Source: Alphaproteobacteria bacterium
Lineage (GTDB): Bacteria > Pseudomonadota > Alphaproteobacteria > CAAHEQ01 > UBA3637
Direction of reading: 5' to 3'
Assembly: GCA_045632845.1 (NCBI GenBank)
Contig: JAZQXL010000011.1
Location: 2,158-66,157, forward strand
DNA: 64,000 nt
A model generated the notes under the pieces. It did not search any database, was not told where the DNA came from, and was given only the letters and a program-made list of their open reading frames with translations. Shown one piece after another: positions 8,700-22,109 of the stretch; the first letter of the stretch is position 1; each line of letters opens with the position of its first letter. The translations under genes and the position numbers were made by a program.

Positions 8700-9845
8700 T
8701 CAACATTTCACATTTTCATATAAAACAGAGGGGAAAGAAACTTTATTTCTCGTTATTTTTTTTTTGACAGCTTGAAAGCCGTTTTTCCCATTTTCTAAAT
8801 TTAAAACTTCAACAGCATCATAATCATTGACAGTTTGTCTTATTTTTGATCTTAAATCTTCATAGCGTTGCACTGCATTTGTTGAAATGGGGTGTTCATT
8901 ATGCAAAACATCAAAACATTTTTTAAGACGTATTAAACTTTTATCAGACAATGGTCTAGAAGCATCAATCACCTGACGCATACCATCTTCCGTTCCACGG
9001 CAAAAACAAACAGCATCACATCCCGCTGCTAAAGCGTATTTTGTATTTTCATACAAAGTGCCATTCAATGCCCGCATTTCAATTCCATCACTAATTAAAA
9101 AACCATCAAATCCAATTTCTCCACGAATCAAGCGGGAAATACCCTCAGCTGACTGTGTCACAGGCCACTTGTCATCAACAGATGGAATTAAAATATGTGC
9201 CGTCATCCCCATTGGACAATTATCTGCATTTTTTTGGAATGGATAAAAATCATCTGCCAACTCACTGACAGTTTCATTTAATGCTGGCAACAAAAAATGA
9301 GGATCAACAACCACACGCCCATGCCCAGGTAAATGCTTCATACAAGGAACAATACCCTGTTCTTTATAAGTTTCAATCATGACTTTGCCACATTCAGCAA
9401 CCACTTGCTTGTCTTTAGAATAGCATCTATTTTGAAGCACCGGTGCTGTTATATCATATCGAACATCCAAACAAGGAGCATAATTTAAATTAACCCCTGC
9501 TTTTTTTAAATCTTGAGCAATCAATTCAGCTTGTAATTTTGCCATTTCCTTCATTTCAAGAAAAGGCAAATCACCCATACTAAATTGAGAGGCAAAATTT
9601 CTATCCGTTAAAGGCATTTCAAATCGAGAGGTACATCCACCTTCTTGATCAACAGCAATCAACACATCTTCACGACCGATTACCTCTTTGATTGATTTTG
9701 TCAACGCTGAAACTTGATTCCACGTTGCAATATTACGCTTAAAAATAGTCACTCCGATAGGATTTGATTCTTCAAGCATATATTTTTCATTATCCGTTAA
9801 TGTATGCCCTGAAACAGAAAGCATCGCAGATAATATCGGTTTCAT
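8700..9845 (-). CDS. nagZ: Beta-N-acetylhexosaminidase (GH3)
   Basis: AVDQEGG, NYAPCLD, KHLPGHG..VDPH, GMTAH, FDGFLISD. Confidence 0.9.
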   Translation of the reverse strand: MKPILSAMLSVSGHTLTDNEKYMLEESNPIGVTIFKRNIATWNQVSALTKSIKEVIGREDVLIAVDQEGGCTSRFEMPLTDRNFASQFSMGDLPFLEMKEMAKLQAELIAQDLKKAGVNLNYAPCLDVRYDITAPVLQNRCYSKDKQVVAECGKVMIETYKEQGIVPCMKHLPGHGRVVVDPHFLLPALNETVSELADDFYPFQKNADNCPMGMTAHILIPSVDDKWPVTQSAEGISRLIRGEIGFDGFLISDGIEMRALNGTLYENTKYALAAGCDAVCFCRGTEDGMRQVIDASRPLSDKSLIRLKKCFDVLHNEHPISTNAVQRYEDLRSKIRQTVNDYDAVEVLNLENGKNGFQAVKKKITRNKVSFPSVLYENVKC

Positions 9846-10992: not shown

Positions 10993-11130
10993 AACGGGAC
11001 TCCTTTATAATTTTATTATAAAATATCACAAAAAAAACAAGTTTGTCAATATTTTTTTACTCAAAACACAAAAACCATTATTAAACAAAAATATCAAAAC
11101 TTACAACTACCATCTTTTAGAGTTTAATTC

Positions 11131-12729: not shown

Positions 12730-12932
12730 AAAAACCCCCTATTCTGCATCAGAACATATTTCTTTTTATATCTTTATTATAGCATGATTTATACACCCTT
12801 AAAACAAAATCAAACAACTTATTGATTTATATAAAAAAAATAATATTCATCATCACCAACTCTTTATTGACAAAATGTTACAATCCATATTATCTTTAAA
12901 TAAAGAAAATTTAATAATTAAAAGGATTGCAT

Positions 12933-13640
12933 ATGAAAAGTATTTTAGAAAAAAAATGGATTGGCCCTCTGCTTGTGTTTTTATTGTCAATTGGAATGTC
13001 TATTTCTTTTTCAGTTCAAATAACCCCTTATCTTAAAAAAAATATCCCCATCATCAATGAAACCATTGATAGTTTTTTGCCTATCACCATACAAAATGGG
13101 GAAATTACACAACCTGTAAATACGGTTATTAGCAAAACCATCTTTTTTGAAAAAAAACCACTCAAAATTGTGTTAGACACACGATCAGATACGCTTGATA
13201 TTAACACTCTTTCTGAAGATGGATGGTATTTTAGCAAAAAGTGTTTGTATTCTGTAGCAGGAGAAAAAAGAGAAAGACAATGTCTTAACGCACCACAAAA
13301 TCAAGAAGCTTTTACCATCGATAAGGGAATTGTTCAAACCTCTTTTGATTATATAAAAGACTATATTTCTTTGCTTTTATATGGCGTATTAAGTCTTCTT
13401 ATATTCTGCGTATTTTATCTGATTATTTTGTTTTACACAGTTATTTTACACTGGATTATTGCTCTTTATTATAAAACAACTTTTGGACAAACGCTTTTTG
13501 TCAACACACTTTTTTATATCGCCTTAATGCTGTTTGAAAAAGCAACCAACATTTACACCAGCTTTTTCTTAACAGCACTCTTACTCATTGTAACCAACTT
13601 GTTCATTTGCAAAAACGCAAATGAGAAGAAAAACAATTAA
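12933..13640 (+). CDS. Membrane protein (DUF1189-like)
   Basis: N-terminal TM, LPITIQNGEI..., VLDT, several C-terminal TMs. Confidence 0.55.
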   Translation: MKSILEKKWIGPLLVFLLSIGMSISFSVQITPYLKKNIPIINETIDSFLPITIQNGEITQPVNTVISKTIFFEKKPLKIVLDTRSDTLDINTLSEDGWYFSKKCLYSVAGEKRERQCLNAPQNQEAFTIDKGIVQTSFDYIKDYISLLLYGVLSLLIFCVFYLIILFYTVILHWIIALYYKTTFGQTLFVNTLFYIALMLFEKATNIYTSFFLTALLLIVTNLFICKNANEKKNN

Positions 13641-13655
13641 TCTTTAAGATAGATT

Positions 13656-13790
13656 AAACAAACAAAAAAACCACCCGATGCGGGTGGTTTTAATTTTTGG
13701 TACAGCCGGCTTTATGCATACCGAGCTAATTATTCAGAGGATTTTAAAAAATTGGCGTTAAAGGTGAAATTCCTGCAATTTTAATTTGAG
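13656..13790 (+). repeat. Junction repeat 1 (distal, attL-like)
   Basis: aaaaccacccgatgcgggtggtttt hairpin, TGGTAC, frame WYSRLYAYRANYSEDFKKLALKVKFLQF* (13698-13784). Confidence 0.9.
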
Positions 13791-13891
13791 GATGCGGGCG
13801 TCCCGAATTAAGTTTTCCCTCGGAAAAAATTCTTGTATTCAAGATCAATCTGTGGTACAATGAGGCACAGTTGTTCATGAAAGGTCATAAG

Positions 13892-14446
13892 ATGACACTT
13901 AACACACCAGATTCTGTTAAATTGATAGAGCCCATCATAGAATACGAAGAACAAATTTGCGCATATCGCAAGGAATTTCTGGATTGCAATAGCTCGATGG
14001 ATGGAACCAACGCACTTAAAAAGTTTGAATCCCCAAAAGATTGGATAGATTATGTGCTGCGTTGCAAGGATCCATGTACTGTGCCATCAGGTTTCACTCC
14101 ATCAACTCAATATATACTAGTACGAGAAAAAGACCAAAAAATTGTTGGTATGATCCAAATCAGGCACTATTTTAACGAGTTCTTGAAACAATATGGGGGG
14201 CATATAGGTTATTCTGTTGCGCCAAGCGAACGGCGCAAAGGATATGCGACCTTAATGTTAAAAATGGTGTTACCAAAATGCAAAAAATTGGGTATTGAAA
14301 AGGTGTTAATTTCTTGCATCACAGGCAACGAAGGAAGCAAAAGAGCCATTTTAAATAACAACGGTGTTTATGAATCAACTGTACATGAGCCAGACCAAAA
14401 TGTTAACTTAGAAAGATATTGGATTGATTTATCTCGTTCACGTTAA
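13892..14446 (+). CDS. GNAT family acetyltransferase (cassette 1)
   Basis: VGMIQIRH, GGHIGYSVAPSERRKGYAT, NEGSKRAI. Confidence 0.9.
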   Translation: MTLNTPDSVKLIEPIIEYEEQICAYRKEFLDCNSSMDGTNALKKFESPKDWIDYVLRCKDPCTVPSGFTPSTQYILVREKDQKIVGMIQIRHYFNEFLKQYGGHIGYSVAPSERRKGYATLMLKMVLPKCKKLGIEKVLISCITGNEGSKRAILNNNGVYESTVHEPDQNVNLERYWIDLSRSR

Positions 14447-14542
14447 GTTTGAGTATAAAATTTCATTTAACATAAACTATTTCGGGGGCTCGTTAAACTT
14501 GAACCAATATAACCCCTTGTTTTACAATAAATCACAAAAAAG

Positions 14543-14715
14543 AGTTCGATAAATTGAACCTTACAAAATCGAACTATTATCGAACAAGCACAAGTGCTTA
14601 AAAACAAACAAAAAAAACACCAGATATGGGTGGTTTTAATTTTTGGTACAGCGTGCTTTGCGAATACCGAGCCAATCATTTAGAGGATTTTAAAAAATTA
14701 GCACAACTGATGTAG
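14543..14715 (+). repeat. Junction repeat 2
   Basis: AGTTCGAT...ATCGAACT..ATCGAAC arm, terminator, TGGTAC, frame WYSVLCEYRANHLEDFKKLAQLM* (14644-14715). Confidence 0.9.
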
Positions 14716-14822
14716 ATTCTAATTTTTTACCATTCGTATCATAAGTCTCACATGATTGACTGTTACGAATATTATTATAGAGAGTACAATCCATTTTTAT
14801 TTTTCCATCTTTATAATATTCC

Positions 14823-15365
14823 TTATAAGAACCATCTAAAAACTTCAGTATTCTTTATTTTTAAATGAAGGGCTGTTTTTTCATACTCATTCCAATCAAA
14901 AGAATGTGGATTTTGACTTAAGTATTTTGCCATACGGATAACACCGCCATGGGTCACAATCAATGTATTTTTTATGTCATCCAATTCATCAAAAAACGAT
15001 TTAACCCGAAGGTAAACATCTTCCCAAGATTCTGCATTTACTTCGTGTGGTGTTTTATTGAAAATATCCCATTCATCTTGAGTGATATCTTGAATGAGTC
15101 GACCTTGTAAATTACCAAAATTAATTTCTCTTAGCCTAGAATCAAAGCGGACAGGTAAATGCAATTTCTCATTGATAATTTGAGCGGTTTCTTTTGCTCT
15201 GACTAAATCTGATGAGATAATATTATCTATATTCAGAGATACTATCTTATCCAAACAAATAAGGGCTTCTTTTCTGCCCGTTTCGTTTAATGCCATATCC
15301 AAATGACCTTGGATTTTGCGTTCCAAGTTCCAATCCGTTTGTCCGTGTCTGAGTAAATAAATCAT
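14823..15365 (-). CDS. Histidine phosphatase (phosphoglycerate mutase family)
   Basis: RHGQT, SSDLVRA, LREINFG, VTHGG. Confidence 0.92.
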   Translation of the reverse strand: MIYLLRHGQTDWNLERKIQGHLDMALNETGRKEALICLDKIVSLNIDNIISSDLVRAKETAQIINEKLHLPVRFDSRLREINFGNLQGRLIQDITQDEWDIFNKTPHEVNAESWEDVYLRVKSFFDELDDIKNTLIVTHGGVIRMAKYLSQNPHSFDWNEYEKTALHLKIKNTEVFRWFL

Positions 15366-15387
15366 CTAAAATCCTTTTTGTTTTTAC

Positions 15388-15873
15388 TTATAACTCTTTT
15401 TCAAAACGGATGAGTGGAACATCAAGTTTCCAAAAGTTTTTACTCGGAGCGTTTGTTTTTATCATCCCTTGTTTTTGATAAAAACCAATGGAAGGTCCAT
15501 CCTTGATTGTCCACACAATTAACTTATTATAGCCGTCTTGTTTTTTTAATCGGCAAATCTCTTTCATTAAAGCGCTTCCGACACCTTGTTTTTGAAAATC
15601 AGGATGAACATAAAGCATTTGAATTTCAACAGCTCTTTCTTCCGGATATTCAAGAGTTAAAAATCCAACAACGTGATTTTCTGTTTCGGCAACATAATAT
15701 TCAACTTCTTTAATACGATTAGCTGTTCGTTCTATCACCGCTTCATCAAAAGGCATATTGTCCAGAAAATCATCAGGTAAATATCCTCGATAACAGGCTT
15801 GGTAAGCATGATAGTGGGCGGATTTGATATCTCTGGCATCATTTGGTATGGCTTTACGAATTTTTAATTGCAT
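15388..15873 (-). CDS. GNAT family acetyltransferase
   Basis: LYVHPDFQKQGVGSALM, GFYQKQG. Confidence 0.9.
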   Translation of the reverse strand: MQLKIRKAIPNDARDIKSAHYHAYQACYRGYLPDDFLDNMPFDEAVIERTANRIKEVEYYVAETENHVVGFLTLEYPEERAVEIQMLYVHPDFQKQGVGSALMKEICRLKKQDGYNKLIVWTIKDGPSIGFYQKQGMIKTNAPSKNFWKLDVPLIRFEKEL

Positions 15874-16750
15874 CTAAAATCTCATCTACTTCGTTTGGAT
15901 AAAGATTCTTTGTCTCCGGAACACTTAAATGTTTTGCCAACAAAATCGGTGTATCTAGTGTTATATCCGGATAATGAACCCGCATTTGTTTAAGGCCTGT
16001 TTCTACATCTGGCGTGTGGGTATCAAAACCATCTGTTTCCAAAGCCTGTTTTAAGGGCAGATAATAGACCCCTGTCACATAAACCACCTCTGCCCATTGT
16101 TCTTTCGGACAGTCTTTATAAACCAAAAAACCCTTATGAATAAAACCCTCGTTCAACCGTAGTGTTGAAGTCTTTTCTCCGTTCAACAGAGCCGGCCAAC
16201 GCCTTTCAACTAAATGAAGCCACTGTTGTTTTGGGGATAAAGCATGTTCTATAAATCCTTTGATAATTTCGGCGGTTTCTTCGGGTGTTTGGTTATCATT
16301 GTTGACAATAAAATCAGAATACGGACGGTTTTGATAGCCTTCCTCATACATTTGCCGAATGCGATTTCTTTCCCAATCGTCCAGTTCTCGCATACCACGA
16401 TTTTTCAAACATTCTTCCAAACTCGGTGCAAGGGTAATGTTCAAAAATCGAGTGTTTTCATCGGCTAGAGCAGACCATTTTTGATAACTTTCTTCTGAAA
16501 TCGGATAAGCGAAGATAACGGTTTCAAACTCTTCACCTTCTTTTAATGCCAATAACTTTTCATTCAGTCGTTTTTTTCGTTCTGCCCACCCTTCTTTTAA
16601 GGATAAGCCGATTTTTTCTTGTTCTTCATCGCTCATCAGTTCATCCACTTCAATAAAAGTGGCATTTGGAAGTATATTTACCAAAATCTTAGAAACAGTT
16701 GTTTTGCCTGAATTGATTGGCCCATTGATGTTCAGTATTAGCATAAACAA
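15854..16750 (-). CDS. P-loop nucleotide kinase (AAA-like) fused to an ASCH-like domain
   Basis: GPINSGKTT Walker A, LEECLKNR lid; C-terminal LLNGEKTSTLR (ASCH GxKxxxxR). Confidence 0.65.
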   Translation of the reverse strand: MFMLILNINGPINSGKTTVSKILVNILPNATFIEVDELMSDEEQEKIGLSLKEGWAERKKRLNEKLLALKEGEEFETVIFAYPISEESYQKWSALADENTRFLNITLAPSLEECLKNRGMRELDDWERNRIRQMYEEGYQNRPYSDFIVNNDNQTPEETAEIIKGFIEHALSPKQQWLHLVERRWPALLNGEKTSTLRLNEGFIHKGFLVYKDCPKEQWAEVVYVTGVYYLPLKQALETDGFDTHTPDVETGLKQMRVHYPDITLDTPILLAKHLSVPETKNLYPNEVDEILDAIKNS

Positions 16751-16881
16751 TCTTTAACTCCTTTAATACATTTTATATCTTTATCTTTCCAAAATCAATT
16801 ATTTAATCAAAAGACTCTGTGAAAGCAGAGTTTTTTTGTATTCATTCCATAAATAAATCATATATAACCAAAGGAATGAAC

Positions 16882-17378
16882 ATGAATACAGCAATAGAAA
16901 AATTAGATGAATTATTAGCAAAAGCAAGAACTCAACTTATTGAAAAGAAAGGGTTAAAAGAAGAACAAATAGAGTAACCTGAAGCCACAGAAGAACTCCC
17001 TCAACACCCTGATACAGATTATTTAATCAAGGTCTTTAATCACTTAAAGGATTTGGTATACATCAATACTTAATATGAGTTTTCTGAACAGTTTTTAAAC
17101 AAAAACAACTGCGCAAAGAAAAACAGTTTGGGGAACTGTTTTTCTGCGTAAAGCAATGAAACACTATGAGCCAAAATGGCAATTGTAGGCGAATAGATGT
17201 TGGAATTGATTATGGGATGATACTATCAGAACACAGACATCCATCCATAGATGCATTACATTCTTTAATCAAATCAATCAGCGAACTCAGCGAAGCAGAA
17301 ACCAATCATCAAAGACTTGATGCTCTTTACAAAGAATGCCACAGTTTAATTACAAAAAGGTTATTAAAGAACTATTAG
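16882..17378 (+). pseudogene. Decayed ORF with multiple in-frame stops
   Basis: AAGGA RBS + ATG 16882; MNTAIEKLDELL...EQIE*PEATEELPQH...INT* continues coding-like; downstream fragment 17166..17378. Confidence 0.45.
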
Positions 17379-17584
17379 AAGACAGAAATTTAAAAAATTC
17401 GTTAAATGTCTTAAAGTTCGAGGTTGTTCGAGAAATCCAATCGGGTAAAAATCATCAATGTCCGACAAATCCGTTCGGGAAAAATGGTACTAAAATCTTA
17501 AAATATAGGTGTGTCTAAAAGTCTTTATCGGGCAAAGTGACGTGCAACAGTGACGGGAAAGTAAAAACAGGCGAAAAATAAGCA

Positions 17585-17733
17585 TAAAAAAAAGCCCCAT
17601 TTTTAGGGGCTTATTTTATTTTTGGTACAGCATGCTGAACGAATACCGAGCCAATAATATCAAAGAAATTGATGAGTTGTATCGTTTAATTGAAAGCCTT
17701 TCCTTTCAATTACAACTTGAGCAAGTCACCTAA
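17585..17733 (+). repeat. Junction repeat 3 (divergent)
   Basis: Different terminator (aagcccc-attttt-aggggctt), TGGTAC, frame WYSMLNEYRANNIKEIDELYRLIESLSFQLQLEQVT* (17623-17733). Confidence 0.85.
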
Positions 17734-17769
17734 ACCTGCCATGAGGATGGGAGACAAAAAATAATTTGA

Positions 17770-17790
17770 CTATGTCAAAAAATGTCGTAT
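17770..17790 (+). promoter_or_regulatory. Candidate WYL/DriD operator overlapping the promoter
   Basis: CTATGTCAAAAAATGTCGTAT, spanning TTGACT (17766) and TATATT (17788); related motif at 19302. Confidence 0.5.
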
Positions 17791-17810
17791 ATTGGATATA
17801 TAAGGAGTTT

Positions 17811-18731
17811 ATGATGCCATATGAAAAAACAGAAAATTTATTAGATTTAGCAATTTGTATGCAATCAAATCGCGAAGGTGTTAGTCTTTCCGACATAATG
17901 AATCGTTTCCAAGTATCCAGACGAACAGCAGAAAGAATGCGAGACATGATAGTTTCTCGTTTTATTCAAGCAGAAGAAATCGAGGGTGATAATCGTCAAA
18001 AAAGGTGGCGAATTCCTCAAGGAACATTAAAAGATTTTATTCAATTTTCAGCTGATGATTTGGCTTGCTTAAACTTAGCAAAAGATGCTTTAGAAAAAGA
18101 AAAACTATCCGACAAAGCCATTCAATTAAATACAATTATTGAAAAAATTACAGCCTCAATAAAAACAGACACGCTCAGGAAAATAGAACCAGATGCAGAG
18201 GTTTTATTAGAAGCTCAAGGATTTGCCCGTCGTGTTGGTCCAAAAATCAAAATTAACACCAATTATTTAGATATTATAAAAGAGGCTATTTTATCCACTA
18301 AGAAAATTACAATAACTTATAAGAACGAAAAACAAACTGTTTCGCCTTATGGCTTTTTATACGGAAACAAACATTATTTGGTCGCTTATTCTGATAAAAC
18401 AAAAGAATATCGTTATTTTGCACTGCACAAGTTATCCGATGTTCAACTAACTGATAATATTTTCAGAAAAGATGAAAGTTTTTCATTAGAAGATTTTACA
18501 AAAGATTGCTTTGGTGTGTATCGTGAAGATCCTGTAGAGGTAGAATGGTTATTTAATGCGGAAACGGCAGATGATGCCTCAAAATATGAATTTCATCCCT
18601 CACAACAGATGATAAAAAATCCTGATGGCACTTTGACAGTCAAATTTTTTGCTGGAGGTCAAAAAGAAATGGATTGGCATTTATACACTTGGGGAAATAA
18701 AGTTAAAGTCATTAAACCTGAAAGGAAATAA
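17811..18731 (+). CDS. WYL-domain transcription factor, DriD-like (wHTH-WYL-WCX)
   Basis: LLDLA...VSRRTAERMRD wHTH; PYGFLYGNKHYLVA WYL; FHPSQ...DGTLTVKFFAGG..EMDWHLYTWG C-terminus, as recalled for Caulobacter DriD. Confidence 0.9.
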   Translation: MMPYEKTENLLDLAICMQSNREGVSLSDIMNRFQVSRRTAERMRDMIVSRFIQAEEIEGDNRQKRWRIPQGTLKDFIQFSADDLACLNLAKDALEKEKLSDKAIQLNTIIEKITASIKTDTLRKIEPDAEVLLEAQGFARRVGPKIKINTNYLDIIKEAILSTKKITITYKNEKQTVSPYGFLYGNKHYLVAYSDKTKEYRYFALHKLSDVQLTDNIFRKDESFSLEDFTKDCFGVYREDPVEVEWLFNAETADDASKYEFHPSQQMIKNPDGTLTVKFFAGGQKEMDWHLYTWGNKVKVIKPERK

Positions 18732-18735
18732 AAAA

Positions 18736-19317
18736 ATGGAAAGAAAATTTGTAGATTTGAAATATATCGAACCAAATGCAAAAGTTGTTATTTTAGGAAC
18801 TTTTCCATCAGAGGCATCCAGAGATACATTCTTTTATCATAAATCAACCAATCAATTTTGGAAAATAATGAGTGAAATTTTTGGGGACACCCCAATTAAA
18901 CATTTAGAAACTAAAAAAAATGATCAAAAACCCTCACCAGATGAAAACCTACAATTAATAGAAAATAGAAAAAACTTCTTAAAAAAACATAAAATTGGCT
19001 TATGGGATATGATTAAATCTTGCTATATTGATAATAGTAAAGATTCATCCATTAAAGACCCTGAATACAATGATTTAACAACTTTAAAAACAGAATGTCC
19101 ACAATTGGAATGTATTTTTTTTAGCAGCAAAAAAGCATTTAAACACTATCAAAGATATTTAAAACAAGTTGATGAAACATATAAAAATTGGTTAGAGGAA
19201 ATGTCAAATGGAGAAGAACATATTTTACCATCGCCAAGTTCTGCTAATGCTCGTATGGAATTTAATCAAAAAAAAGAAAAATGGCAAAAACTTTTAACTC
19301 AATACGTCAAAAAATGA
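18736..19317 (+). CDS. Uracil-DNA glycosylase superfamily (hypoxanthine/Mug-like)
   Basis: VILGTFPS..S, FYH..NQFW, IGLWD, LPSPSSAN. Confidence 0.85.
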   Translation: MERKFVDLKYIEPNAKVVILGTFPSEASRDTFFYHKSTNQFWKIMSEIFGDTPIKHLETKKNDQKPSPDENLQLIENRKNFLKKHKIGLWDMIKSCYIDNSKDSSIKDPEYNDLTTLKTECPQLECIFFSSKKAFKHYQRYLKQVDETYKNWLEEMSNGEEHILPSPSSANARMEFNQKKEKWQKLLTQYVKK

Positions 19318-19335
19318 CAGATAGGCATTTTATAC
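19302..19335 (+). promoter_or_regulatory. Second candidate WYL/DriD operator plus -10 box
   Basis: ATACGTCAAAAAATGACAGAT (19302-19322) followed by TATACT (19330-19335). Confidence 0.45.
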
Positions 19336-19360
19336 TCTTTTTGTCAAAGGAGTATAAAAT

Positions 19361-20305
19361 ATGCATAAAAATCACATTTCAACATCACTGAATGATTTTT
19401 TAAATGAAATAGAATTTAAAAAAAATCATCCACATACCCCTGTCGGACTTCCAAGTGGTTTAAGGATTTTTGACACATATACAAACGGCTTTCAAAAAGG
19501 AGATTTAATTTTAATTGGCGCTCGTCCTGCAATGGGGAAAACTGCCTTTGCAATTAATATCTCCTATAATATAAGCAAATATTTTTTTGATTTAGAAAAA
19601 GAAAATCAAAGTATAGATAAATGTGTTCTTTATTTTAACTTAGATGGAACAAACTTATCTCTTATCCCTCGTTTTATTAATTTAGAAACAGAATTTTCGC
19701 ATTGGGATAGGATTAATGGAATAAAAGATGCCCAAACAGAAGAAAATGTTATAAATTCGTGTTTATCCCTATCAAAATTACCAATTTATTTATCCAATAA
19801 AGGGCATAATATAAAAGAAATCAAAGAAGAAATACAAACATTAAATTCTGAACATCAAATTGGGTGTATTATCATTGATTATCTTCAATTCATTGAGAAA
19901 CACACAAATGATTATATGGCTATCTTAAATGAATTCAAAAAAATGGCTATACGAATGAATGTTCCAATTATAGTATTAACACAGTTAAAACGATCGCTTG
20001 AACAAAGAAAAAACAAAATACCAAAGTTGTTTGATATTATCGGATACAATCAAAGAAATGATTCAGCTGATAAAATTATTTTTCTATATCGTAAGATATA
20101 TTACCTTCAAAATCAATTACCTCGAAAACAAAAATACGAGCCACAGAATCATTTTAAACAACGATATAAAAAATGGGAAAATAAATGTGATAAAATAATG
20201 AATAAGTGTAATATTATTATTGCAAAGAACCACTTGGGACCCATTGGAAATATAGAGGTTTCATTTGACTGCATGCGTGGCATATTTAGAGATGCTGAAG
20301 AATAG
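19361..20305 (+). CDS. DnaB-like helicase C-terminal domain only (degenerate)
   Basis: GDLILIGARPAMGKTAFA, IIDYLQ, PIIVLTQLKR, IIAKNHLGPIG; no N-terminal domain. Confidence 0.8.
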   Translation: MHKNHISTSLNDFLNEIEFKKNHPHTPVGLPSGLRIFDTYTNGFQKGDLILIGARPAMGKTAFAINISYNISKYFFDLEKENQSIDKCVLYFNLDGTNLSLIPRFINLETEFSHWDRINGIKDAQTEENVINSCLSLSKLPIYLSNKGHNIKEIKEEIQTLNSEHQIGCIIIDYLQFIEKHTNDYMAILNEFKKMAIRMNVPIIVLTQLKRSLEQRKNKIPKLFDIIGYNQRNDSADKIIFLYRKIYYLQNQLPRKQKYEPQNHFKQRYKKWENKCDKIMNKCNIIIAKNHLGPIGNIEVSFDCMRGIFRDAEE

Positions 20306-20317
20306 ATTTTGCACGAT

Positions 20318-20517
20318 AGTTCGATAAATTGAAAAATTGAACCTTACAAAATCGAACAGTTACCGAACCAGCATAAGCGCTTAAAAACAAACAAAAAAAC
20401 CACCCGATGTGGGTGGTTTTGATTTGGTACAGCGTGCTGAACAAATACCGAGCCAATTATTCAGAGGATTTTAAAAAATTGGCGTTAAAGGTGGAACTGT
20501 TGGAATTTTCAATTTGA
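20318..20517 (+). repeat. Junction repeat 4
   Basis: Arm + terminator + TGGTAC + frame WYSVLNKYRANYSEDFKKLALKVELLEFSI* (20425-20517). Confidence 0.9.
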
Positions 20518-20527
20518 AAACTTAAAA

Positions 20528-20917
20528 TTATTTATCCATTATAGATACAATAGGAACTGTTCTATATCTAGGTGTTCCATCATCATATTTGGCAATAGTT
20601 TGATACCTATAAACCCCTATTTGCTTTGCACATTTACCAACAGGATTTTGAATAATTTCCCCATCATAATAATGATGATCATCCCAAAGCAACATCAGTT
20701 GTTTTCCACTTATTTGACACGAAATATTACCTACCTCACAAACTAGCGCCTCAGTTCCTGTTGCTTGAAATACCTCTAAATTTTTTCGTGAAAAACAAGG
20801 TTCTTTACCCATCATTTTATACAAAACTATATCACCGTCTTCAGATTTATATTTTATTTCTTGAGCATTTACTAAAAATGGAATAAAAAATAAAGCGATA
20901 AGCAAGACTTTTTTCAT
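20528..20917 (-). CDS. Secreted Cys-containing hypothetical protein (cassette 4)
   Basis: Signal peptide MKKVLLIALFFIPFLVNA; AGGAG RBS. Confidence 0.7.
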   Translation of the reverse strand: MKKVLLIALFFIPFLVNAQEIKYKSEDGDIVLYKMMGKEPCFSRKNLEVFQATGTEALVCEVGNISCQISGKQLMLLWDDHHYYDGEIIQNPVGKCAKQIGVYRYQTIAKYDDGTPRYRTVPIVSIMDK

Positions 20918-21054
20918 TTCTAAATTTCTCCTTTACCAAAAGTACAAAAAAGTATATCAAACTATTTACAACAAAGCAATACATAAAATATACCTTTGAC
21001 TTCTATATAAAGATTTAAATTATAAAAATGTAAACAGATTAATCTCATCCTAAA

Positions 21055-21169
21055 AGTTCGATAAATGATAAAATTGAGCCTTACAAAATCGAACTATTAT
21101 CGAACCACTACAAATACTTAAAAACAAACAAAAAAACCACCCGATATGGGTGGTTTTGATTTTTGGTAC
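21055..21169 (+). repeat. Junction repeat 5 (tRNA-proximal, attR-like arm plus terminator)
   Basis: Same arm and hairpin as junctions 2 and 4, abutting the tRNA CCA end. Confidence 0.9.
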
Positions 21170-21250
21170 CTCTAGCCGGACTTGAACCAGCATGATCTTG
21201 CGATCAACAGATTTTGAGTCTGTCGCGTCTACCAGTTTCGCCATAGAGGC
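21164..21250 (-). tRNA. tRNA-Leu(CAA)
   Basis: GCCTCTATGGCGAAACTGGTAGACGCG-ACAGA CTCAAAA TCTGT-long variable arm-GGTTCAAGTCC-...-ACCA. Confidence 0.96.
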
Positions 21251-21270
21251 ATTTTTCGCTAGACAAGTTG

Positions 21271-21298
21271 ATTATACTCAATTATAATCCAATGTCAA
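21271..21298 (-). promoter_or_regulatory. Consensus sigma70 promoter of tRNA-Leu(CAA)
   Basis: TTGACA-16 nt-TATAAT on the minus strand. Confidence 0.8.
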
Positions 21299-21326
21299 GA
21301 GTTTTTTTAACAAAAGGACAAAAAAA

Positions 21327-22109
21327 ATGAAAAATATTTCTTCAACCCCCTCATCAATCTTTATAACCGGCGCTTCTAGCGGTATTGGAAGAGCCATTTG
21401 CGCCGCTTATGCTAAGCCAAATGTTCACCTTTTTTTGTGTGGCAGAAACTTGGAACGCCTCAACGCTATTGCAAAAGAATGTAATGAAAAGGGAGCTCTT
21501 GTCCACACTTTTCAATTTGACACAACTGATAAAATAGCTGCAAAAAAAGCCTTATTAGACGCACACGCCATCAAACCACTTGATCTTGTTGTTGCAAATG
21601 CTGGTGTTTCTGGTGGAGTTTTAGGGTTAGAAGATACTGACGCTTCCATTCGCCAAATTTTTGATACAAATATTTATGGTGTTATCAACACGGTTCTACC
21701 CGCTATTGAAATTTTTAAAAACCAAAAATCTGGTCAAATTGCCTTAATGAGCTCAATTGCAGGATTTAGGGGGTTGATGAATTGCCCAGCTTATTCTTCT
21801 TCAAAAAACTTTGTAAAAGCATGGGGAGAAGCTTTAAGGGGCGCACTCAAAGCTGACAATATTAAAGTAAATGTTATTTGCCCAGGATTCGTCAAAACAC
21901 CTCTAACTGATAAAAACCTGTTCAAAATGCCATTTTTGATGCAACCAGACAAAGCTGCAAACATCATCATTGATGGATTAGAAAAAAACAAAGGCATCAT
22001 CGCATTTCCAAAAATTATGCATTTTTCAATTGCACTTTTGACCGCCCTGCCCCGTTGCATAACGAATCCGATTTTTGAGTATTTACCACAAAAAGAAAAA
22101 AAATCCTAA
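21327..22109 (+). CDS. SDR family oxidoreductase
   Basis: TGASSGIG, ANAG, YSSSK. Confidence 0.92.
   Translation: MKNISSTPSSIFITGASSGIGRAICAAYAKPNVHLFLCGRNLERLNAIAKECNEKGALVHTFQFDTTDKIAAKKALLDAHAIKPLDLVVANAGVSGGVLGLEDTDASIRQIFDTNIYGVINTVLPAIEIFKNQKSGQIALMSSIAGFRGLMNCPAYSSSKNFVKAWGEALRGALKADNIKVNVICPGFVKTPLTDKNLFKMPFLMQPDKAANIIIDGLEKNKGIIAFPKIMHFSIALLTALPRCITNPIFEYLPQKEKKS

What the first reader, a model, noticed from the sequence alone, without database searches (positions are those of the whole stretch)
13656..21250. Integron-like array of integrase-less cassettes stacked at tRNA-Leu(CAA)
Seen: five junctions, each a terminator hairpin + TTTGGTAC, with TGG at 13698, 14644, 17623, 20425 and 21164; the last is the tRNA's own CCA end. 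They delimit four units of about 0.95, 2.98, 2.80 and 0.74 kb with unrelated cargo (GNAT; phosphatase-GNAT-kinase/ASCH; WYL-glycosylase-DnaB; secreted protein). Three units end in a ~45-bp copy of the distal chromosomal terminator region, so each insertion would rebuild the same target next to the tRNA. No recombinase gene is in the window. Inference: a polarised gene-capture array (newest unit tRNA-proximal) of minimal non-autonomous elements mobilised in trans. It is distinct from attC integrons and CRISPR. This is the best candidate for an undescribed system here.
Basis: partly seen in the sequence, partly recalled or inferred. Interest (0 to 1): 0.9.

Follow-up and report, generated by a model that had tools for sequence, protein, structure and literature searches.

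The report
Serine-integrase cassette array at tRNA-Leu
Four small gene cassettes stacked next to a leucine tRNA gene are real, but their conserved ends are the two leftover ends of a serine-integrase gene, so this is a stripped-down, probably hitch-hiking form of a known kind of mobile island, not a new recombinase-free system.

Summary
Five hairpin+TTTGGTAC junctions (TGG at 13698, 14644, 17623, 20425, 21164) delimit four units of 946, 2979, 2802 and 739 bp beside tRNA-Leu(CAA). No recombinase gene lies in the window.

The interpretation needs one correction. The roughly 90 bp after each TGGTAC encodes the C-terminal tail of a large serine recombinase (LSR). The roughly 109 bp before it is collinear with the last codons of the same gene. 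In relatives a full 537-aa LSR reads straight into the tRNA's CCA end. So attP lies inside the LSR gene, and integration splits off its tail.

The units are therefore LSR-less derivatives of LSR islands. Each brings a new terminator for the tRNA and rebuilds the target.

They behave as discrete mobile units:
- Tail-bearing junctions occur in 36 of 80 family genomes, 1-4 per genome.
- Cassette order differs between species.
- The WYL-UDG-DnaB unit is 90-94% identical in species whose flanks are 74-80% identical.
- A cognate full-length LSR was found in only 7 of 80 genomes, and not in this one.

The closest precedents are the Dehalococcoides ssrA islands and, as I recall them, ccr-less SCC elements. 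I rate it a new variant of a known kind. The new feature is an attP inside the LSR's own reading frame at a tRNA CCA end.

The parts
13667..13703 (.). J1, distal junction (attL-type): bidirectional terminator hairpin 13667-13691, spacer, TTTGGTAC 13696-13703. It has no GTTCGATAA arm.
13698..13784 (+). Unit 1 left end: LSR C-terminal tail remnant, class B, 28 codons plus stop, starting at the TGG of TGGTAC
13871..14446 (+). Unit 1 cargo: GNAT acetyltransferase
14544..14649 (+). Unit 1 right end (J2): LSR 3'-end remnant (GTTCGATAA ... ATCGAAC ... ATCGAAC), imperfect hairpin, TGGTAC 14644-14649
14644..14715 (+). Unit 2 left end: LSR tail remnant, class B, 23 codons plus stop
14823..16750 (-). Unit 2 cargo: histidine phosphatase 14823-15365, GNAT 15388-15873, P-loop kinase/ASCH 15854-16750
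16751..17628 (+). Unit 2 right end (J3): about 0.87 kb without Pfam-matching ORFs. It ends in a second arm type (GTGACG/GACGGG repeats near 17535-17560), hairpin 17592-17612 and TTTGGTAC 17621-17628.
17623..17733 (+). Unit 3 left end: LSR tail remnant, class A, 36 codons plus stop, 32 of 36 residues identical to the tail of the intact G085 LSR
17766..20305 (+). Unit 3 cargo: WYL/WCX regulator 17766-18731, UDG-superfamily 18649-19317, DnaB_C-type ATPase 19361-20305
20319..20430 (+). Unit 3 right end (J4): LSR 3'-end remnant, terminator hairpin 20396-20420, TGGTAC 20425-20430
20425..20517 (+). Unit 4 left end: LSR tail remnant, class B, 30 codons plus stop
20528..20917 (-).
21056..21169 (+). Unit 4 right end (J5, attR/attB-type): LSR 3'-end remnant, terminator hairpin 21133-21157, TGGTAC 21164-21169, which is also the tRNA 3' end
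21164..21250 (-). tRNA-Leu(CAA), the integration target. A consensus promoter (TTGACA, 16 nt, TATAAT) lies at 21298-21271.

Best explanation
The locus is a tandem array of four miniature integrative elements. They were built by a large serine recombinase (LSR) whose attB is the 3' CCA end of tRNA-Leu(CAA) plus the terminator just downstream, and whose attP lies inside the 3' end of its own gene.

In an autonomous island the LSR gene runs across attP. Integration at TGGTAC, whose TGG is an invariant Trp codon and the complement of CCA, leaves the LSR minus its last 30-36 residues beside the tRNA. The tail coding piece ends up at the far end of the island.

The four units here keep only those two gene ends: the tail at the left, and about 36 degenerate final codons plus a terminator hairpin at the right, around unrelated cargo. 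So each unit still carries both halves of an attP. On integration each restores the tRNA, supplies a new tRNA terminator and recreates an attB-like site. That allows the next insertion at the tRNA-proximal position.

The units encode no recombinase. They must be moved by a cognate LSR supplied by a sibling island, either in trans or by co-excision with a neighbouring LSR island (accretion). This genome has no cognate LSR, so its array is currently parked.

Shown: the anatomy, the homology of the arms to the LSR gene, full LSR islands at the same site in relatives, variable arrays, and horizontal spread of one unit. Inferred: catalysis by the LSR, mobilisation in trans or cis, the role of the hairpin as tRNA terminator, and any regulatory meaning of tail loss.
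For: 1. The right arm is coding sequence.
- Among 25 class-B and 16 class-A copies, the + frame starting at TGG is open to a conserved stop, and 2 of the 25 class-B copies have an earlier stop.
- Third-position entropy is highest in class B (24.2 against 19.4 and 15.4).
- The minus frames carry stops in most copies.

2. A 537-aa protein in G012 has the Resolvase, Recombinase and Zn_ribbon_recom domains. It reads into the tRNA-Leu(CAA) 3' end and stops inside the tRNA.
- The same arrangement is seen in G083, G034, G008, G070, G092 and the metagenome locus L138.

3. The far end of the 14,711-bp G012 island carries TGGTAC followed by a class-A tail. Joined to the LSR, it would complete the reading frame.
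- In G085 the LSR is intact with that tail, because another element follows it.
- In alignment A3, paralogous LSRs have homologous tails after an invariant Trp.

4. The left arm is collinear with the last ~130 bases of the LSR gene (A2).
- GTTCGATAA lies at -107 to -110 from TGGTAC in 33 of 79 distinct junctions.
- It lies at -131 in the 9 LSR-coding ones.
- LSR remnants of 55-86 aa flank the distal junction in four relatives.

5. Empty sites in G010 and G017 are gene, hairpin, TGGTAC, tRNA, with no arms.

6. The arrays vary.
- The tail-bearing junction pattern is found in 36 of 80 family genomes, 1-4 per genome, with 0 control matches.
- The same cassettes sit at different ranks in different species.

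7. The WYL unit is 90-93.6% identical over about 2.78 kb in five or more other species. Their tRNA-side flank is 73.5-79.8% identical.

8. In G012, attL and attR share only TGGTAC at the crossover. That fits a serine integrase.
Against: - No cognate LSR was found in this genome. The only LSR, on contig C22, is 36.5% identical and has no TGGTAC in its tail.
- Only 5 of the 36 genomes with junctions also have a full-length cognate LSR at the thresholds used.
- No circular form or empty-site read was seen. The only read-level data are assembled metagenome contigs at 90% likeness or more. Their joints fall in repeats and may come from other strains.
- A serine integrase normally needs only about 50 bp of attP, so conservation of 109 + 90 bp is more than the model requires.
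- The sharp left boundary of the left arm at GTTCGATAA across different cargos is not explained.
- Unit 2 ends in a different arm type with no visible LSR homology.
- No recombination directionality factor was identified.
Confidence: 0.72

Rival explanations
1. The units are inert relics. Each is a full-size LSR island that integrated on its own and later lost its recombinase and most of its genes by deletion. They no longer move by site-specific recombination. Sharing between species comes from homologous recombination through the conserved arms after DNA uptake, or from vertical descent.
For: LSR remnants of several lengths (55-86 aa) and one LSR pseudogene exist, so decay is going on. Most array-bearing genomes lack a cognate LSR. 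The arms, 100-190 bp at 80-90% identity, could serve as homology anchors. In L137 an LSR pseudogene switches to a cassette-type arm exactly at GTTCGATAA, which looks like arm-to-arm recombination.
Against: Independent deletions would not leave the same boundary (-107 to -110) in 33 junctions with unrelated cargo. The tail keeps a coding-type substitution pattern. The WYL unit is 90-94% identical across species whose flanks are 74-80% identical, and it moves as a whole unit bounded by TGGTAC. Cassette ranks differ between species.
Confidence: 0.17
2. One reading: a previously undescribed gene-capture platform, unlike known recombination systems, with an unknown recombinase elsewhere in the genome.
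For: No recombinase in the window. The layout is integron-like, with insertion next to a fixed site. The arrays are confined to one family of uncultured gut Alphaproteobacteria: 32 stretches in genome contigs, 31 titled Alphaproteobacteria and 1 Pseudomonadota, and none in viral contigs.
Against: Both arms are ends of an LSR gene, and full LSR islands occupy the same site with the same crossover. That leaves no need for an unknown enzyme.
Confidence: 0.04
3. A tyrosine recombinase moves the units: host XerC/XerD, or the ~198-aa recombinase seen next to the tRNA in two relatives.
For: All 41 of 41 family genomes searched carry a XerC/XerD-like pair. A classical island with a short tyrosine recombinase is inserted 18 nt inside tRNA-Leu in G005 and G032.
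Against: That island's crossover lies inside the tRNA, not at TGGTAC. I saw no dif-like core at the junctions by eye, but I did not run a formal dif search. The crossover identity of only 6 bp and the LSR-derived arms point to the serine enzyme.
Confidence: 0.04

Closest known systems
Dehalococcoides ssrA genomic islands (McMurdie et al. 2011, PMC3146451; passages read)
   Same: Tandem islands sit downstream of a t(m)RNA gene and are bounded by repeats of its 3' end. A ~540-aa serine recombinase (DsiB, CcrB-like) lies at one island edge. The authors describe 15 islands without an integration module as possible cis-mobilizable elements.
   Different: There the target is ssrA, with a 20-bp direct repeat and insertion in the T-loop. 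A six-gene integration module with a second small recombinase is present. The passages I read do not say that attP lies inside the recombinase gene. Here the crossover is at the CCA end with 6 bp of identity, the LSR gene itself spans attP, and the LSR-less units are 0.7-3 kb with arms derived from the LSR gene.
SCC / pseudo-SCC composite islands of staphylococci (recalled; CcrB role also described in PMC3146451)
   Same: Elements dependent on a large serine recombinase (Ccr) stack in tandem at the 3' end of one conserved gene. As I recall, ccr-less members can be moved by Ccr supplied by another element.
   Different: The target there is a protein gene (rlmH/orfX), not a tRNA, and the elements are much larger. 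I am not aware of the att site lying inside ccr. P0001 scores only 69.8 bits against the CcrB model, whose cut-off is 900.
Cis-mobilizable elements and tandem accretion (ICESt1/ICESt3 of Streptococcus thermophilus; cited in PMC3146451, whose passage and reference list I saw; the rest recalled)
   Same: Units are flanked by att sites, encode no recombinase, are stacked with autonomous relatives at one site, and are thought to move by co-excision.
   Different: Those elements depend on a tyrosine integrase at the 3' end of fda. Here the enzyme is a serine recombinase and the units are far smaller.
Integron cassette arrays and CALINs (recalled)
   Same: Works alike: small promoter-poor units with unrelated cargo, insertion at a fixed proximal site, order reflecting history, and arrays that can lack the integrase.
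   Different: No IntI tyrosine integrase, no attI, and no attC sites with R/L boxes. Here recombination sites are double-strand LSR-type sites made of the recombinase gene's own ends.
Genes split by their own attP: SSV-type archaeal integrases and integration-dependent immunity of mycobacteriophages (recalled; not read here)
   Same: attP lies inside a gene of the element, so integration changes that gene's C-terminus.
   Different: Those cases use tyrosine integrases. In the phages the split gene is the repressor. Here a serine integrase loses its own last 30-36 residues.
Tycheposons of Prochlorococcus (bioRxiv 10.1101/2020.12.28.424599; passages read)
   Same: Cargo-carrying integrative elements at tRNA genes. 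27 of 937 carry a large serine recombinase rather than a tyrosine one. Tandem junctions were seen.
   Different: They are 10-20 kb elements with replication modules. The passages I read describe no LSR-less mini-cassettes and no attP inside the LSR gene.

Membership tests
Large serine recombinase (for the enzyme inferred to build the array) | Domain order: N-terminal resolvase catalytic domain, then recombinase domain, then zinc beta-ribbon with a coiled-coil insert | tested here: met
   P0001 matches PF00239 at 3.6e-16, PF07508 at 1.9e-15 and PF13408 at 7.3e-9, in that order. The protein comes from relative G012, not from the window.
Large serine recombinase integrative element | Short att sites with only a few bases of identity at the crossover; attL and attR are hybrids of attP and attB | tested here: met
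   In G012, attL and attR share only TGGTAC. Empty attB sites are seen in G010 and G017, and an attP-like joint in G085.
Large serine recombinase integrative element | The element encodes its own recombinase | tested here: not met
   None of the four window units has a recombinase ORF. Only gene-end remnants remain.
Large serine recombinase integrative element | The recombinase actually catalyses attP x attB at these sites | not testable with these tools
   Needs an in vitro or in vivo recombination assay.
Cis-mobilizable / recombinase-less satellite element (CIME, pseudo-SCC type) | Bounded by functional-looking att sites of a known recombinase family, with no recombinase or transfer genes, and in tandem with autonomous relatives | tested here: met
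   All four units have both att halves. Autonomous relatives share arrays with cassettes in G008 and G085. Whether the sites function was not tested.
Cis-mobilizable / recombinase-less satellite element | Demonstrated excision or transfer | tested here: inconclusive
   Indirect only: the WYL unit is 90-94% identical across species whose flanks are 74-80% identical. Metagenome contig joints lie at the junction repeats. No circle was seen.
Integron / CALIN | IntI-type tyrosine integrase with attI next to the array | tested here: not met
   No PF00589 match in the window. The genome's tyrosine recombinases are a XerC/XerD pair and one weak 583-aa protein on other contigs or far away.
Integron / CALIN | attC sites (imperfect palindromes with R''-L''/L'-R' boxes, recombining at GTT) | tested here: not met
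   The junctions are hairpin, about 10 nt, then TGGTAC, flanked by LSR gene ends. Read by eye against the recalled consensus, GTTCGAT/ATCGAAC does not fit RYYYAAC/GTTRRRY.
tRNA gene as integration target | An intact tRNA is regenerated at the proximal junction | tested here: met
   ARAGORN and Rfam (54.4 bits, gathering score 29) call tRNA-Leu(CAA) at 21164-21250. The same tRNA sits at the array end in 11 of 21 sequences first scanned: the window stretch and 20 fetched loci.

The most novel reading that the evidence does not exclude
This could be a true integron-like gene-capture platform run by a serine integrase. All left half-sites (chromosomal terminator, cassette arm, LSR 3' end) resemble one another. 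Every internal junction would then be equivalent to attP, and the tRNA-proximal junction to attB. A single LSR could then insert, excise and reshuffle cassettes without a directionality factor. Loss and regain of the LSR's own tail, supplied by whichever cassette lies next to it, would work as an integration-dependent on/off switch for the enzyme. The conserved 109 + 90 bp arms would be selected parts of that machine rather than debris.
Probability: 0.25. Interest if true: 0.8.

Novelty: new variant of a known kind. Interest (0 to 1): 0.58.

Why it matters
[quoted passage not shown] Here a whole clade targets the CCA end of tRNA-Leu(CAA). One paralogue targets tRNA-Lys(CTT), using an invariant Trp codon as the crossover.
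- **The attP inside the integrase's own reading frame suggests a built-in switch.** Integration removes the enzyme's tail.
- **The 0.7-3 kb LSR-less cassettes are unusually small.** They move across species of an uncultured gut lineage with small (1-2 Mb) genomes. That suggests gene flux in these bacteria may run through a very compact cassette system.
- **The site has practical interest.** A short, defined attB/attP pair and its enzyme would be candidates for genome-engineering tools.

Tried and rejected
**Structured RNA or group II intron at terminators.** Rfam at gathering thresholds found only the two tRNAs in the window. Rejected.

**Right arm as a decayed tRNA 3' half, or a minus-strand ORF.** Both were considered and dropped. 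The minus frames carry stops in most copies, and the + frame behaves as coding sequence. The small minus-strand ORF family across the junctions (F0) reflects DNA conservation.

**Parent gene of the tail inside this genome.** tblastn with the four tail peptides found only the four copies themselves.

**Phage origin.** The junction pattern has 0 matches in viral contigs. I did not search the phage or plasmid collections by similarity.

**Small ORFs in 16751-17620 as an excisionase or directionality factor.** No Pfam hit at E up to 1.

**PADLOC on the cargo.** Only the WYL regulator, plus a weak mad8-like hit for the DnaB_C protein. No defence system can be named.

**Solved structures.** No PDB sequence relative of the G085 LSR at E up to 0.001.

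**Circular form.** The intact LSR-plus-tail joint in G085 proved to be two elements in tandem, not a circle.

**Metagenome contigs.** Four runs from four studies were laid. Each run holds only about a fifth of the sampled words of the queried stretch, window 13000-22000. The joints connect junction repeats; for example, in X1 17613 is joined to 21155. The contigs are short, at 90% likeness or more, and may come from other strains. I take them as weak support only. Parts without cover mean nothing.

**tRNA-like block in the window's own unit 1.** The score was not significant: 10 of 500 shuffles reach it.

**Literature.** Five searches turned up no paper describing an LSR whose attP lies in its own 3' end at a tRNA CCA end. 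For most hits I saw only listings and abstracts. I read passages of PMC3146451, bioRxiv 10.1101/2020.12.28.424599, PMC9203015 and PMC4383910. Supplements were closed and were not consulted; those of PMC3146451 and the tycheposon preprint might hold att-site details that bear on novelty.

Full report
**1. What is in the window**

The motif TTTGGTAC lies on the + strand at 13696, 14642, 17621, 20423 and 21162. The window has 6 matches against 1.96 expected, and 2 of 100 shuffles reach 6. The last copy is the 3' end of tRNA-Leu(CAA) at 21164-21250 on the minus strand. A consensus promoter for the tRNA sits at 21298-21271.

Each motif is preceded by a G+C-rich hairpin. The terminator scan calls four of the five on one or both strands.

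The four intervals are 946, 2979, 2802 and 739 bp. Their cargo:
- unit 1: a GNAT;
- unit 2: His_Phos_1 + GNAT + kinase/ASCH;
- unit 3: WYL + UDG-superfamily + DnaB_C;
- unit 4: a 129-aa protein with no Pfam hit.

- About 60-110 conserved bases follow each of the four internal TGGTAC copies.
- About 109 conserved bases precede three of the five copies (J2, J4, J5). They contain GTTCGATAA and two copies of ATCGAAC.

The repeats occur only at this locus in the 1.6-Mb, 34% G+C genome. Neither PF00589 nor PF00239 matches inside the window.

**2. The same architecture is widespread in the family**

A junction query matched 22 of 36 other genomes of the same family and 0 of 24 genomes of other families. 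Often several copies lay 1-4 kb apart on one contig.

In the fetched loci, every strong junction has the same anatomy: a hairpin whose stem sequence varies, about 10 T-rich bases, TGGTAC, then the conserved right arm. A few weak ones have degenerate cores.

The proximal junction abuts tRNA-Leu(CAA), followed by the syntenic genes for an SDR, an unknown protein, BamB and Der, in 9-10 loci.

A stricter pattern for the tail-bearing junction is present in 36 of 80 family genomes, at 1-4 copies each, with no match to the reversed control. This genome and G079 have the maximum of four.

Across one genome per species in the public collection, the pattern matched 32 stretches. Thirty-one are titled as uncultured Alphaproteobacteria MAGs and one as Pseudomonadota. 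It matched nothing in the viral collection.

**3. The right arm is the tail of a serine recombinase**

Read from the TGG, the right arm is open for 23-36 codons and falls into two main classes that resemble each other at the protein level.
- Among 25 class-B copies the third codon position varies most (entropy 24.2 against 19.4 and 15.4), and only 2 copies have an early stop.
- The minus-strand frames have stops in most copies.

The parent gene appeared at an apparently empty site in relative G012. There a 537-aa protein (P0001) with the Resolvase, Recombinase and Zn_ribbon_recom domains reads through a hairpin and TGGTAC into the tRNA, and stops there.

The same is true in G083, G034, G008, G070 and G092, and in metagenome locus L138.

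The G012 island is 14,711 bp and carries restriction-modification genes. Its far end is a chromosomal hairpin, TGGTAC, then a class-A tail. Joined to the LSR, that tail would complete the frame.

In G085 the frame is complete, because a second element follows the LSR. Window unit 3's tail matches that tail at 32 of 36 residues.

In the protein alignment (A3), the crossover TGG is an invariant Trp, and paralogous LSRs have homologous tails beyond it. These include this genome's only LSR, on contig C22.

A 37%-identical paralogue in G100 reads in the same way into the CCA end of tRNA-Lys(CTT).

**4. The left arm is the other end of the same gene**

The 109 bases before TGGTAC align collinearly with the last ~130 bases of the LSR gene (A2). 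GTTCGATAA, ATCGAAC, the A-rich run, the hairpin and the spacer all correspond.

In the cassettes this region no longer codes for protein, and the hairpin has become a canonical terminator.

GTTCGATAA lies at -107 to -110 in 33 of 79 distinct junction-upstream sequences, and at -131 in the 9 that are still LSR coding sequence.

Intermediate stages of decay exist:
- LSR remnants of 55-86 aa beside the distal junction in four relatives;
- a 60-aa remnant next to the tRNA in G009;
- a metagenomic LSR pseudogene that switches to a cassette-type arm exactly at GTTCGATAA.

Empty sites in G010 and G017 have only gene, hairpin, TGGTAC and tRNA.

**5. Mechanism**

attP lies inside the 3' end of the LSR gene, and attB is the terminator plus the CCA end of the tRNA. 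In G012 the only identity shared at the crossover is TGGTAC, as expected for a serine integrase.

Integration leaves the tail at the distal end and the tail-less LSR at the tRNA. Each element must bring a terminator, because it displaces the tRNA's own. This would explain the hairpin at every right end (inference).

The window's units retain both att halves but no enzyme. They are LSR-less derivatives of the kind called cis-mobilizable elements or pseudo-SCC elsewhere.

The left half-sites resemble one another. That covers chromosomal terminators, cassette arms and LSR 3' ends, which share G(G/T)T(G/T)T..A....TTGGTAC-like ends. After each insertion the proximal site therefore again looks like attB, which permits serial insertion. 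Whether this also removes the need for a directionality factor is speculation.

**6. Are the units mobile?**

The same cassettes occur at different ranks in different species:
- the WYL unit is third of four here, the only unit in G006, tRNA-proximal in G013 and distal in G005;
- the MFS and the 711-aa cassettes behave likewise.

The WYL unit is 90-93.6% identical over almost its whole 2.79 kb to copies in five or more other species. The adjacent SDR-to-Der flank is 73.5-79.8% identical in the genomes where both could be compared. That indicates horizontal spread of the unit as a whole.

Assembled metagenome contigs from four studies show joints between junction repeats, for example unit 2 placed next to the tRNA. 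This is weak evidence, and no circle was seen.

A full-length cognate LSR (57% identity or more) was found in 7 of 80 genomes. Five of those also carry tail-bearing junctions. This genome has none, so its array cannot move by itself at present.

**7. Comparison with known systems, and verdict**

The nearest described system is the Dehalococcoides ssrA islands. They are tandem islands at a tmRNA gene with a ~540-aa CcrB-like serine recombinase, plus 15 islands without an integration module that the authors suggest are cis-mobilizable (PMC3146451, passages read).

SCC and pseudo-SCC composites, and CIME accretion, are functional parallels that I cite largely from recall.

Integrons are a functional analogy only. 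Their defining integrase and attC sites are absent.

Three features are new as far as my five literature searches show:
- the attP inside the LSR's own frame;
- the CCA-end target with a Trp codon at the crossover;
- the very small cassettes whose arms are the recombinase gene's ends.

[quoted passage not shown] The tycheposon preprint reports a minority of LSR-bearing elements at tRNAs.

I rate this a new variant of a known kind, with moderate to good interest.

Noticed in passing
L074, L046, L053, L079, L072, L056 (about 60-100 nt upstream of GTTCGATAA); window 14473-14530 weakly: Many cassettes carry a fragment resembling the 3' part of tRNA-Leu (..CTAGCCGGACTTGAAC..) just upstream of the left arm. 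Six of 40 distinct cassettes score z>4 against shuffles. The window's own copy is not significant (10 of 500 shuffles reach it). Origin unexplained; it may be a relic of an older att site.
   Followed up: partly
L037 (G005) near oriented position 11117; L046 (G032) near 9114: In two relatives the tRNA-Leu copy next to the array is cut 18 nt from its 3' end and followed by a ~198-aa tyrosine recombinase gene. This is a classical tRNA-targeting island at the same tRNA, with a crossover different from TGGTAC.
   Followed up: partly
window 16751-17628: Unit 2 ends in a second arm type with GTGACG/GACGGG repeats and a different hairpin. This arm type recurs in several relatives (L080, L042, L058, L062, L065, L083). 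The stretch 16842-17843 has the highest summed contig depth in all four metagenome runs laid, and no ORF in it has a Pfam hit. It may belong to a different recombinase lineage or hold accessory binding sites.
   Followed up: partly
own genome, contig C22:3539-5086 (minus strand): The genome's only large serine recombinase (521 aa, 36.5% identical to P0001) sits intact, tail included, on a 12.2-kb contig with no tRNA. This is a separate element whose att site is unknown.
   Followed up: partly
L104 (G100:C36): A paralogous LSR (37% identical) reads into the CCA end of tRNA-Lys(CTT), ending ..NWW. The Trp-codon/CCA design is therefore not limited to tRNA-Leu.
   Followed up: partly
window 17685-17712 (class A) and about 20490-20510 (class B); likewise in relatives: Both tail classes end in an inverted repeat of 7-10 bp at a similar distance (about 65-90 nt) from TGGTAC, although the sequences differ (TTGAAAG..CTTTCAA versus TCCTGAA..TTCAGGA). 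In class B it spans the stop codon. Function unknown.
   Followed up: no
window 12927-13640 and J1 (13656-13703): The J1 hairpin is of the cassette-arm type (CCACCCGAT..GGGTGG), unlike the CCCTTC..GAAGGG hairpins of the empty sites in the same genus. The gene before it (237 aa, no family hit) is a singleton among the fetched loci. J1 may be the end of an older, decayed cassette rather than original chromosome.
   Followed up: no
L088/L096 (G004:C5), just downstream of tRNA-Leu(CAA): A second, diverged tRNA-Leu-like copy (TGGTATTTCTAGCCGGACTTAAAC..) lies head-to-tail directly next to the tRNA, after a different hairpin.
   Followed up: no
L048 (G007) after oriented position 1951; L102/L130 (G085) after the tail: Short C-rich, low-complexity stretches follow TGGTAC or the tail, unlike the surrounding 34% G+C DNA. 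In G085 and G012 the stretch is conserved at the island's left end. In G007 it may be an assembly artefact.
   Followed up: no
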